Below are positions 2,664 through 3,607 of a stretch of 64,000 bases of DNA, piece by piece (position 1 is the first letter of the stretch; the number at the start of each line of letters is the position of its first letter). This DNA is from Escherichia coli (lineage in GTDB: Bacteria > Pseudomonadota > Gammaproteobacteria > Enterobacterales > Enterobacteriaceae). The stretch lies in NCBI RefSeq assembly GCF_003334785.1, contig NZ_QOWV01000010.1. The stretch is one strand, 5' to 3'. The notes under the pieces are model-generated. The model made no database searches. It was not told the origin of the DNA and saw only the letters and a list, made by a program, of their open reading frames with translations. The translations under genes and the position numbers were made by a program.

Positions 2664-3112
2664 AATTATAATAAATATTATTGTTGAGTGTTATATTATT
2701 ATTCCTGTGTGATACATTGAGCAAAGACGCGTTCATCTTCGTCAAAGATATTATTAAATGCTGGTTTTGAAAAAAGTTCATCGGATAAGATATAGTCACG
2801 AAATAAGTATCTGCTAATATTTTATGATTTCTTTTTCAGAACGTCGAACGGGATTTTCTTATTTAAGATATCAGAATCTTATGATTCGGGTAAAATTCTA
2901 AATAAATCAACATGTCATTAAAATCATCATAGCCATTAGCTATTTCGGCTAAAATAGAGACTACATGTCTTCGGTCCATCTCACTTAAGGAGTGTAGTTC
3001 CGTTGTAAGTTTTTCCATAGCTTGCACTGCTAAATTTCGAACAAGGAATTTTCTGCTGGTAATCTCTAAAAAGATGGCATGGTTTACAATGATTTTTGTT
3101 TCCTTTTGATTA

Positions 3113-3607
3113 TTATGAACAACTGTCCATGATTTCGTTTAAGAATGAAGAGAAATCACTAAACGAACTGAATATATTTTCTGTGCCAATATTATCTCTA
3201 ATTTCAAAAAAGTTACTTTTAATGTCATAAGTAAATATTGAAATGCTATAATCCCCGATCACTAACCGTTCTTGTAGATCAGGGTTTATGAAATCATCAT
3301 TATTTCTATAAAATTCATTTACGGCAAAAAGGTTTTTAACTGAAGGTTCTGGAATCGAGAGGCTAAATAATCGTAATCCATTAACTTCGAATCCATCCAT
3401 TGCTCTTAAAAAAGTAAGATAATCAGGTTGATTCTTAAAAAGAATACTAACTTCATTACATAACTTCTCCAGGCAATTAGTTGAATTAGAATTAAATTCT
3501 ATTTGGATTATACTTTCAATAAATGATTCCTTGAGCGGTGCTTCAAATGGATAGTCTAAATCATTCATCATTTTTATTAATTTATTTATTTGGGTTTTAG
3601 TCATCAT
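3113..3607 (-). CDS. yrhA: candidate immunity protein for the upstream Hcp-nuclease toxin (164 aa)
   Basis: ORF start ATG overlaps toxin stop by 4 nt (ATGA), implying translational coupling; acidic, AT-rich codon usage like the toxin gene; gene symbol from remembered synteny (yhhZ-yrhA), function is inference. Confidence 0.6.
   Translation of the reverse strand: MMTKTQINKLIKMMNDLDYPFEAPLKESFIESIIQIEFNSNSTNCLEKLCNEVSILFKNQPDYLTFLRAMDGFEVNGLRLFSLSIPEPSVKNLFAVNEFYRNNDDFINPDLQERLVIGDYSISIFTYDIKSNFFEIRDNIGTENIFSSFSDFSSFLNEIMDSCS

What the first reader, a model, noticed from the sequence alone, without database searches (positions are those of the whole stretch)
2863..3138. Unannotated small open frame between the immunity gene and yrhB
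Seen: on the minus strand a frame is open from 3138 to a TAA at 2863-2865, with the first ATG at 3018 giving a 51-aa product (MEKLTTELHSLSEMDRRHVVSILAEIANGYDDFNDMLIYLEFYPNHKILIS); a GTG at 3027 would give 54 aa. It falls below the 60-aa cut-off of the ORF track. It lies in the same AT-rich islet, same strand as toxin and immunity genes, and its upstream open frame overlaps the 3' end of the immunity ORF in another phase. Inference: either a remnant of an additional orphan immunity/toxin cassette or a small protein; the RBS is weak so coding status is uncertain.
Basis: inference. Interest (0 to 1): 0.35.

Follow-up and report, generated by a model that had tools for sequence, protein, structure and literature searches.

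The report
yrhD: decayed orphan immunity gene relic
The small open frame is the already annotated E. coli gene yrhD, and it is most likely the start-less, decaying remnant of an ~80-residue immunity gene against a nuclease toxin, left in a toxin/immunity islet, not a working small-protein gene.

Summary
It is not unannotated: RefSeq calls it yrhD (WP_001307436.1; Swiss-Prot P58037), and it is present in 3,809 of 5,426 complete E. coli genomes.

The whole 91-codon frame, not only the 51-aa ORF, is homologous to a family of 77-97-aa (mostly 79-88) proteins with no Pfam or NCBIfam model. A profile built without E. coli matches the frame at E 1.2e-16. The annotated Met is a conserved internal Met, and no ATG, GTG or TTG lies upstream in frame.

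In 23 of 33 genomes, intact family members sit directly after a ~120-aa toxin domain with a Tox-REase-5-like fold, carried by CdiA-type toxins where the upstream gene was examined. They are therefore cognate immunity proteins. Citrobacter braakii has an intact 84-aa copy in the syntenic ggt-yhhY islet.

Within E. coli, yrhD evolves neutrally (pN/pS 1.2-2.5, against 0.1-0.6 for yrhA and yrhB). Divergent lineages have lost the ATG or gained stops while the neighbouring genes stay intact. A second immunity-gene relic lies between yrhD and yrhB.

Verdict: an ordinary orphan-immunity pseudogene. Interest is low to moderate.

The parts
2863..3018 (-). It corresponds to family positions ~33 to the end (helices 2-4 only).
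   Evidence: It is DNA-identical to the L001 CDS annotated 'yrhD: protein YrhD', WP_001307436.1.
2866..3138 (-). Full 91-codon open frame, the relic of an ~80-85-codon immunity gene. Family homology runs from about 3120 to 2866 (profile core 3111-2923). There is no ATG/GTG/TTG in frame before 3027.
   Evidence: - phmmer against 1.84 billion proteins: three ~80-aa proteins at E 5e-4 to 9e-4, spanning frame residues 10-77.
- HMM of 33 family members without E. coli: E 1.2e-16, the only hit in the window.
- Alignment A2.
- BLASTP to Citrobacter P0029: 48% identity, E 8e-16.
3113..3607 (-). yrhA, the presumed cognate immunity gene of the YhhZ toxin. It is intact here and its last 26 nt overlap the yrhD frame.
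   Evidence: NCBIfam NF038335 YrhA family, E 1.7e-35. RefSeq annotation. pN/pS 0.1-0.6.
3604..4782 (-). yhhZ, an Hcp protein with a C-terminal HNH-type toxin domain (Hcp-ET class T6SS effector).
   Evidence: Pfam T6SS_HCP at 2.5e-11 plus a weak HNH match. TIGR03344. PMC5714182 and PMC6730261. The N-terminal 229 aa are 75% identical to the Citrobacter Hcp toxins, and the C-terminal domains are unrelated.
2702..2863 (-). Second immunity-gene relic, in a different frame that abuts the yrhD stop codon. It corresponds to the N-terminal 54 codons of an 86-aa family. It has no start codon, an in-frame TAA at 2822-2824, and lacks the 3' 32 codons.
   Evidence: BLASTP to the Citrobacter L022 10180-10440 product: 49% identity, E 1e-16. 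tblastn against the whole window: E 5e-12. Lineage comparison.
2379..2663 (-). yrhB, an intact Imm35-family orphan immunity gene that closes the array.
   Evidence: Pfam Imm35 at 4.6e-23. 74% identical to the Citrobacter Imm35 gene in the syntenic islet. pN/pS 0.1-0.4.
3171..3200 (-). Sigma-70 promoter-like site TAGAGA-18-TATATT inside the 3' end of yrhA, upstream of the yrhD frame.
   Evidence: Consensus scan. The same hexamers are listed upstream of yrhD, with an H-NS site, in the RpoD genomic SELEX study PMC3946193. The number of such sites in the islet is no higher than in shuffled sequence (14 against 12.0 ± 3.2).
3091..3105 (-). AAGGA (3105-3101) followed after 7 nt by in-frame ATC (3093-3091) and ATT (3090-3088). 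This is the only conceivable non-canonical route to a near-full-length product and is relevant only to the low-probability rival.
   Evidence: Read. The AAGGA is not conserved in the other E. coli lineages.

Best explanation
The ORF is the annotated gene yrhD. It is the 3' two-thirds of a start-less relic of an orphan immunity gene.

The ancestral gene encoded an ~80-85-residue, all-helical (predicted four-helix) protein. In other bacteria, intact family members sit immediately downstream of, and often overlap, the C-terminal ~120-residue toxin domain of CdiA-type and other polymorphic toxins. That toxin domain has a PD-(D/E)xK restriction-endonuclease fold closest to the Tox-REase-5 T6SS effector TseT. 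By inference from this gene linkage, the ancestral protein bound and neutralised that nuclease.

In E. coli the gene lies without its toxin in the ggt-yhhY Hcp-toxin islet. The order is yhhZ (Hcp-HNH toxin), yrhA (its immunity), yrhD relic, a second immunity relic, and yrhB (Imm35). This is a small heterogeneous immunity array of the kind left by cassette replacement in polymorphic-toxin loci.

The relic has no start codon for its N-terminal third. The annotated ATG is a conserved internal Met. Four near-invariant family residues are substituted. The sequence drifts neutrally, and some lineages have lost the ATG or gained stops. It is therefore most likely non-functional, and its 51-aa 'product' is an annotation artefact of a decaying frame.

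Shown: identity with yrhD, homology across the whole frame, toxin linkage of the family, synteny with an intact Citrobacter copy, and neutral drift with disruptions in E. coli.
Inferred: the immunity mechanism, the nuclease activity of the toxin, and the lack of function in E. coli.
For: 1. Identity. The DNA is 100% identical to CDSs annotated yrhD / WP_001307436.1. It is present in 3,809 of 5,426 complete E. coli genomes, always chromosomal.

2. Homology of the whole frame.
- phmmer of the 91-aa frame against 1.84 billion proteins finds three ~80-aa proteins (37-39% identity, whole-library E 5.5e-4 to 8.9e-4) that align to frame residues 10-77, across the annotated ATG.
- An HMM of 33 family members built without E. 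coli hits only this frame among 1,851 window frames (E 1.2e-16, HMM positions 5-67).
- In the family alignment the E. coli Met falls in the conserved AMEQL motif.

3. The family is an immunity family.
- In 23 of 33 genome loci spanning Enterobacterales, Beta-, Gamma- and Alphaproteobacteria and one actinobacterium, the same toxin domain ends at or within about 60 nt upstream of the immunity match, on the same strand.
- Examples are CdiA (TPS / Fil_haemagg / PT-VENN) and an orphan CdiA-CT with 4-11-nt overlaps.

5. Immunity fold. The model is a four-helix bundle with pLDDT 95. The annotated 51-aa product would lack helix 1.

6. Synteny. Citrobacter braakii carries an intact 84-aa homologue (48% identity) in the same yhhY-ggt islet, together with an Hcp toxin, an 86-aa gene and an Imm35 gene.

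7. Decay in E. coli.
- yrhD diverges by 6.4-7.1% in the most divergent lineage, like the flanking spacers (6.5-10.6%) and unlike yrhA (2.2%) or yhhZ (2.8%).
- pN/pS is 1.2-2.5, against 0.1-0.6 for yrhA and 0.1-0.4 for yrhB.
- Observed lesions are ATG to ATA plus an internal TAA, a TAT to TAG truncation, and a frameshift. RefSeq flags these alleles as pseudogenes while the neighbouring genes remain intact.
- About a quarter of evenly sampled hits are of this type (7 of 29; 4 of 4 inspected).

8. The near-invariant family residues F22, D31, F73 and G82 are substituted in E. coli.

9. A second start-less, truncated immunity relic lies directly downstream.
Against: - The 51-codon ORF is intact and identical in most E. 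coli that carry the islet (2,788 of 3,809 are at least 99% identical across the region). This fits recent common ancestry, but it cannot exclude weak selection.
- A sigma-70-type site upstream was recovered by RpoD genomic SELEX (PMC3946193), so the region may be transcribed.
- No ribosome-profiling or proteomic data could be examined, so translation of the 51-aa ORF is not excluded.
- The pN/pS estimates rest on few substitutions (8-21 per comparison).
- The immunity function of the family is inferred from gene linkage only. Neither the toxin nor the immunity family has experimental data, a Pfam model or a sequence relative in the PDB.
Confidence: 0.8

Rival explanations
1. yrhD is a genuine 51-aa (or 54-aa) small-protein gene, translated from the annotated ATG (or the GTG at 3027). 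It has a function of its own, for example a trimmed-down immunity or regulatory peptide that was exapted from the old gene.
For: - It is annotated as a protein in RefSeq and Swiss-Prot (PMC3575317).
- The ORF is intact in roughly three quarters of islet-bearing E. coli.
- A promoter-like site with RpoD SELEX support lies upstream.
Against: - No Shine-Dalgarno sequence precedes the ATG.
- The ATG is a conserved internal residue of a longer family.
- The product would lack helix 1 of a four-helix bundle.
- pN/pS is 2.3-2.5 over the 51 codons. The start codon is lost and nonsense mutations occur in other lineages whose neighbouring genes stay intact.
- A 51-codon ATG ORF arises by chance in 21% of simulations of this composition.
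Confidence: 0.1
2. In K-12-like lineages the whole frame is still expressed as a near-full-length (~75-aa) orphan immunity protein. Translation would start at a non-canonical ATC or ATT (3093/3090) placed 7 nt after an AAGGA, or by coupling to yrhA termination. The protein would still protect against Tox-REase-5-like CdiA or T6SS toxins from competitors.
For: - The 91-codon frame is open in this lineage, which occurs in only 4% of simulations.
- AAGGA lies at 3105-3101 with optimal spacing to an in-frame ATC.
- Orphan immunity genes can be functional (PMC3150448).
Against: - ATC and ATT are very poor initiators (general knowledge).
- The AAGGA is changed in the other lineages (AAGGT, AAGAT).
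- Near-invariant residues F22, D31, F73 and G82 are substituted.
- pN/pS over the whole frame is 1.2-1.8, and the frame carries stops or frameshifts in other lineages.
Confidence: 0.05
3. The ORF is a chance open frame in an AT-rich intergenic or regulatory spacer (for example the promoter region of yrhB) and has no genic ancestry.
For: - A 51-codon ATG ORF is expected by chance in 21% of simulations.
- The region is AT-rich and reported as H-NS bound.
- Divergence is like that of the spacers.
Against: - Profile homology at E 1.2e-16 across 63 residues, from a model built without E. coli sequences.
- 48% identity to an intact gene in the syntenic Citrobacter islet.
Confidence: 0.02

Closest known systems
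Orphan cdiI / orphan immunity genes downstream of CDI, Rhs and T6SS polymorphic toxin genes (Poole et al. 2011, PMC3150448; Zhang et al. 2012, PMC3482391)
   Same: - It is a same-strand gene downstream of a polymorphic toxin and its cognate immunity pair, and it lacks its own full toxin.
- Family members elsewhere sit directly after a CdiA C-terminal toxin domain or in orphan arrays after cdiA.
- The Hcp N-terminal part is conserved while the C-terminal toxin domain and the immunity genes differ between E. coli and Citrobacter. This is the hallmark of cassette replacement.
   Different: - The E. coli copy is not an intact orphan. It has no start codon, carries substitutions at conserved positions and drifts neutrally.
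- It has no accompanying orphan toxin fragment.
- It lies in an Hcp-toxin (T6SS) islet, whereas its intact relatives are mostly attached to CdiA-type toxins.
Heterogeneous polyimmunity loci (Zhang et al. 2012, PMC3482391)
   Same: Tandem, same-strand, structurally unrelated immunity genes: the YrhA family, the YrhD family, the 86-aa family and Imm35. The content varies between related genomes, comparing E. coli with two Citrobacter versions.
   Different: The array is very short. It is attached to a resident toxin gene rather than free-standing. Two of its four members are pseudogenes in E. coli.
TseT-TsiT (PA3907-PA3908) and the Tox-REase-5 / Imm52 toxin-immunity pair
   Different: - There is no sequence-level match to Pfam Tox-REase-5 even at E ≤ 10, and sequence identity to TseT is only 11-12%.
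- The partner immunity protein is an ~80-aa all-helical protein, not the alpha+beta Imm52 type listed for Tox-REase-5 (PMC3482391).
- The immunity model has no significant Foldseek match in the PDB.
[quoted passage not shown] 2017 as reviewed in PMC6730261)
   Same: This is the resident toxin/immunity pair of the islet. YhhZ is an Hcp plus an HNH domain followed by an immunity gene (PMC5714182).
   Different: yrhD is not part of that pair. It is unrelated to YrhA and belongs to an immunity family linked to a different toxin domain.

Membership tests
YrhD (RefSeq 'protein YrhD' WP_001307436.1; Swiss-Prot P58037) | Same 51-aa sequence at the same locus, between yrhA and yrhB | tested here: met
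   There are no DNA differences from the annotated CDS of L001, and the gene order is the same.
Unnamed ~80-aa immunity family (P0019-P0067, Citrobacter P0029/P0023) | Significant sequence or profile similarity over the family's length | tested here: met
   An HMM built without E. coli gives E 1.2e-16 over HMM positions 5-67 of 83. The MAFFT alignment extends to the C-terminus. phmmer gives E 5e-4 to 9e-4 against 1.84 billion proteins.
Unnamed ~80-aa immunity family | Complete ORF of 77-97 codons (mostly 79-88) with its own start codon upstream of the (I/V)FLEF helix | tested here: not met
   The first ATG/GTG/TTG in the frame is the GTG at 3027, downstream of the IFLEI motif.
Unnamed ~80-aa immunity family | Conserved residues: F-L-E-F, D31, E38, L44, F73, G82 (numbering of P0029) | tested here: inconclusive
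   F19, L20, E21, E38 and L44 are kept. The near-invariant F22, D31, F73 and G82 are replaced by I, N, Y/L and K/I.
Unnamed ~80-aa immunity family | Position immediately downstream of the Tox-REase-5-like toxin domain | tested here: not met
   The toxin-domain HMM finds nothing in the 64-kb window, and yrhA lies upstream instead. However, 10 of 33 family loci are also orphans, so this feature is typical rather than obligatory.
Unnamed ~80-aa immunity family | Purifying selection on the coding frame | tested here: not met
   pN/pS is 1.2-2.5. Start-codon loss, nonsense mutations and a frameshift occur in other E. coli lineages.
Polymorphic-toxin immunity proteins (functional class) | Binds and neutralises a specific toxin domain | not testable with these tools
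   This rests on gene linkage only. It needs co-expression or competition assays.
Translated small proteins of E. coli (~50 aa or fewer) | Evidence of translation: initiation-site ribosome profiling, a tagged product or peptides | not testable with these tools
   No held supplementary data mention yrhD, and none of the 17 papers that hold the term in full text addresses its expression.
Pfam DUF1463 (PF07316) | Match above threshold across the domain | tested here: not met
   There is a borderline partial hit only (i-E 9.3e-4, 34 residues, model positions 90-123 of 137). Only 1 of the 34 rows of alignment A2 (33 family proteins plus the E. coli frame) reaches even E ≤ 0.1. It was rejected as a compositional match.

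The most novel reading that the evidence does not exclude
The K-12-type yrhD frame is still expressed, either as the 51-aa fragment or as a ~75-aa product from a non-AUG start after the AAGGA at 3105-3101. It would then give E. coli standing protection against competitors' CdiA or T6SS toxins that carry the Tox-REase-5-like domain. That would make yrhD a functional orphan immunity gene of a previously undescribed toxin-immunity family.
Probability: 0.06. Interest if true: 0.45.

Novelty: new member of a known kind. Interest (0 to 1): 0.25.

Why it matters
The main value is for annotation. yrhD has been carried for two decades as an uncharacterised 51-aa protein of E. coli K-12. The evidence here indicates it should be treated as a pseudogene, the relic of a longer orphan immunity gene. 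It is therefore a poor candidate for small-protein studies.

Three secondary points follow:
- The analysis defines a widespread toxin-immunity pair that has no Pfam or NCBIfam model: a Tox-REase-5-like nuclease domain with an ~80-aa four-helix immunity protein. The pair could be tested directly.
- The yrhD-yrhB spacer holds a second immunity pseudogene.
- The ggt-yhhY islet is a compact, datable example of cassette replacement and immunity-gene decay in an Hcp-toxin locus.

None of this changes current concepts of polymorphic toxin systems.

Tried and rejected
- **Word-indexed search of the 91-aa frame.** It returned only E. coli fragments and variants. One apparent 76%-identity homologue (P0014, on 81 Logan contigs) differs only by C-to-T type changes and has W at CGA-to-TGA positions. 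That points to bisulfite-type reads, so it was rejected as an artefact.
- **Curated libraries.** NCBIfam and Pfam scans of the frame, of the family alignment, of the toxin domain and of the 86-aa protein gave no family. The borderline DUF1463 hit was rejected.
- **Solved structures.** PDB sequence searches with the immunity and toxin profiles found nothing significant. Foldseek of the immunity model against the PDB returned only generic helical bundles, all at E above 0.5.
- **RNA families.** An Rfam scan of 2300-5100 returned only sub-threshold snoRNA chance hits.
- **Promoters and terminators.** Their counts in the islet are no higher than in shuffled sequence.
- **Longer islet versions in E. 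coli.** A distant blastn search of E. coli complete genomes for the Citrobacter Hcp417 C-terminal domain plus the 86-aa gene found no match.
- **Genome scan.** It was rerun with 9 closer sequences.
- **Expression evidence.** I found no ribosome-profiling or proteomic evidence for yrhD. The full-text searches were uninformative and no usable supplements were held.
- **Toxin remnant.** A toxin-domain remnant next to yrhD was looked for and not found.

Full report
**1. What is in the sequence**

The window begins in the E. coli yhhA-ggt region. On the minus strand between ggt and yhhY lies an AT-rich islet of 28-36% GC. It contains:
- yhhZ (3604-4782), an Hcp domain plus a weak HNH match;
- yrhA (3113-3607), NCBIfam YrhA family;
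- the finding;
- yrhB (2379-2663), Pfam Imm35 at E 4.6e-23.

It is open from 3138 to the TAA at 2863-2865. The first ATG, at 3018, gives the quoted 51-aa peptide. The GTG at 3027 is the first possible start of any kind in the frame. The frame overlaps the end of yrhA by 26 nt in another phase. No Shine-Dalgarno-like sequence precedes the ATG.

ORF length alone is weak evidence. In 5,000 first-order Markov simulations of this 477-bp stretch, a 51-codon ATG ORF appears in 21% of trials and a 91-codon open frame in 4%.

**2. It is not unannotated**

A megablast search of 2664-3200 against 5,426 complete E. coli genomes finds the region in 3,809 of them, always on the chromosome. The ORF is annotated there as 'yrhD: protein YrhD' (WP_001307436.1). 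It is also Swiss-Prot P58037 / EcoGene EG14370, described as a hypothetical protein of unknown function (PMC3575317). In K-12-type strains an IS1 element sits in yrhA just upstream. In this window yrhA is intact.

**3. What the frame is homologous to**

The word-indexed protein search found only E. coli fragments. The exhaustive phmmer search of the 91-aa frame against 1.84 billion representatives found three ~80-aa proteins at whole-library E-values of 5.5e-4 to 8.9e-4. They align to frame residues 10-77, that is, on both sides of the annotated ATG.

A profile search then recovered a family of 77-97-aa (mostly 79-88) 'hypothetical' proteins from Citrobacter, Iodobacter, Sphingomonas, Labrys and many metagenomes. 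None has a Pfam domain. The family motif is (A)IFLEF(T/S)...L(D/N)xD.A(I/V)xAMEQL..EL.

The E. coli frame reads KIIVNHAIFLEITSRKFLVRNLAVQAMEKLTTEL, so the annotated Met is the conserved Met of AMEQL. To avoid circularity I built an HMM from the 33 non-E. coli members and searched all 1,851 stop-to-stop frames of the window. The only hit is frame 3138-2866(-), at E 1.2e-16 over HMM positions 5-67 of 83.

The C-terminus also aligns, so the stop codon is at about the native position. What is missing is a start codon for the first ~30 codons. In addition, four near-invariant residues (F22, D31, F73, G82) are substituted.

**4. What the family does**

Intact members are tightly linked to one toxin domain.
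- P0020 and P0019 overlap by a few nucleotides the 3' end of large, contig-truncated CdiA-like proteins.
- P0023 overlaps a 207-aa orphan CdiA-CT that lies downstream of a TPS / Fil_haemagg / PT-VENN CdiA gene.
- All three upstream proteins end in the same ~120-aa domain: WVDEN..YNDSAxGARSN..GQAP..FDGxDGxxxIDRK..RQS..WEVP.

A scan of one genome per species recovered 33 loci. In 23 of them this domain ends at or within about 60 nt upstream of the immunity match on the same strand. These loci come from Brenneria, Leclercia, Pseudomonas, Sphingomonas, Azonexus and even Microlunatus. The other 10 are orphans.

The family is therefore best read as the cognate immunity partner of a PD-(D/E)xK nuclease toxin domain. 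This rests on linkage and fold, not on experiment. The family is all-helical, unlike the alpha+beta Imm52 type that Zhang et al. list for Tox-REase-5 (PMC3482391).

**5. Synteny**

Citrobacter braakii has an intact 84-aa member (P0029, 48% identical to the E. coli frame) in the same chromosomal site. The order there is: yhhY, a 294-aa protein, P0029, an 88-aa gene, an Hcp toxin of 417 aa, an 86-aa gene, Imm35, an 83-aa gene, ggt.

The Hcp N-terminal 229 residues are 75% identical to YhhZ, after which the toxin domains are unrelated. Imm35 is 74% identical to YrhB. This is the usual pattern of a polymorphic toxin locus that diversifies by cassette replacement (PMC3482391; PMC3150448).

**6. A second relic**

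Translating the yrhD-yrhB spacer in another frame gives NKKIPFDVLKKKS*NISRYLFRDYILSDELFSKPAFNNIFDEDERVFAQCITQE** (window 2863-2702, minus strand). This matches residues 2-54 of the Citrobacter 86-aa protein (49% identity; BLASTP E 1e-16; tblastn against the whole window E 5e-12). In Citrobacter that gene lies between the Hcp toxin and Imm35.

In every E. coli lineage examined this relic has no start codon and lacks the last 32 codons. The in-frame TAA is CAA in the divergent lineages. So the E. coli array is yhhZ, yrhA, yrhD pseudogene, 86-aa-family pseudogene, yrhB. The adjacency of the 86-aa relic and Imm35 is shared with Citrobacter.

**7. Is the E. coli copy under selection?**

I aligned six E. 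coli loci of 94-100% identity.
- In the most divergent lineage yrhD differs at 6.4-7.1% of sites. That is like the flanking spacers (6.5-10.6%) and about three times the rate of yrhA (2.2%) or yhhZ (2.8%).
- Nei-Gojobori pN/pS is 1.2-1.8 for the 91-codon frame and 2.3-2.5 for the 51 codons. It is 0.1-0.6 for yrhA and 0.1-0.4 for yrhB. The counts are small.
- One lineage has ATG changed to ATA plus an internal TAA. Another has TAT changed to TAG at codon 39. One has a frameshift. RefSeq flags these as pseudogenes while yhhZ, yrhA and yrhB stay intact.
- Of 29 evenly spaced full-length hits, 7 are of this type, and all 4 that I inspected were flagged as pseudogenes.

The perfect conservation noted among 68 genomes in PMC3575317 reflects the near-identity of the whole region in one clade, not constraint.

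**8. Expression**

A sigma-70-like site (TAGAGA-18-TATATT, 3200-3171) lies upstream. It matches the site listed before yrhD, together with an H-NS site, in an RpoD genomic SELEX study. I could find no ribosome-profiling or proteomic data on yrhD in the held literature.

An AAGGA at 3105-3101 sits 7 nt before an in-frame ATC. This is the only route to a near-full-length product. It is not conserved in the other lineages, so I give that reading about 5%.

**9. Verdict**

'Small protein' is unlikely.
- The object is an ordinary product of polymorphic-toxin locus turnover: a decaying orphan immunity gene.
- What is modestly new is the assignment of yrhD to a widespread, uncurated immunity family paired with a Tox-REase-5-like toxin domain, and the recognition of a second relic beside it.
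- Interest is low to moderate (0.25).

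Noticed in passing
window 2702-2863 (-): Second immunity pseudogene in the yrhD-yrhB spacer. It covers the N-terminal 54 codons of an 86-aa family, whose intact copy is Citrobacter L022 10180-10440, between an Hcp toxin and Imm35. It has no start codon, an in-frame TAA at 2822-2824 (CAA in divergent E. coli lineages), and lacks the 3' 32 codons.
   Followed up: partly
[not shown]
   Followed up: partly
L022 8317-8583 and 10779-11030; L024 10063-10332: Three paralogous 83-89-aa proteins (40-66% identical) are scattered through the Citrobacter ggt-yhhY islets. 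One directly follows a different Hcp toxin (381 aa). They have no Pfam or NCBIfam model and are probably another immunity family.
   Followed up: no
L004-L009 (Logan assemblies carrying P0014): An apparent 76%-identity YrhD 'homologue' on 81 contigs differs only by C-to-T type substitutions and has W where CGA would become TGA. The loci do not translate to the query under table 11. This looks like assemblies of bisulfite-type reads, so it is an artefact and not a divergent homologue.
   Followed up: partly
L003 3579-4276; L013 4087-4784: IS1 activity at this islet. K-12-type strains carry IS1 inside yrhA just upstream of yrhD. Strain PKF8 has an IS1 in place of yhhZ-yrhA-yrhD, leaving yrhB next to yhhY.
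   Followed up: no
P0005, P0013, P0015 (E. coli variants of window 2863-3607): Rare alleles in which deletions or frameshifts fuse yrhA in frame to the yrhD frame, for example the 246-aa P0015. This shows the junction is mutable. Such fusions would restore translation of the full YrhD-family sequence as a C-terminal extension of YrhA.
   Followed up: no
window 4096-4782 (-) compared with L022 8925-9611: YhhZ and the two Citrobacter Hcp toxins share about 75% identity over the first ~229 residues and then have unrelated C-terminal domains. This gives a clear recombination boundary near window 4096-4163.
   Followed up: no
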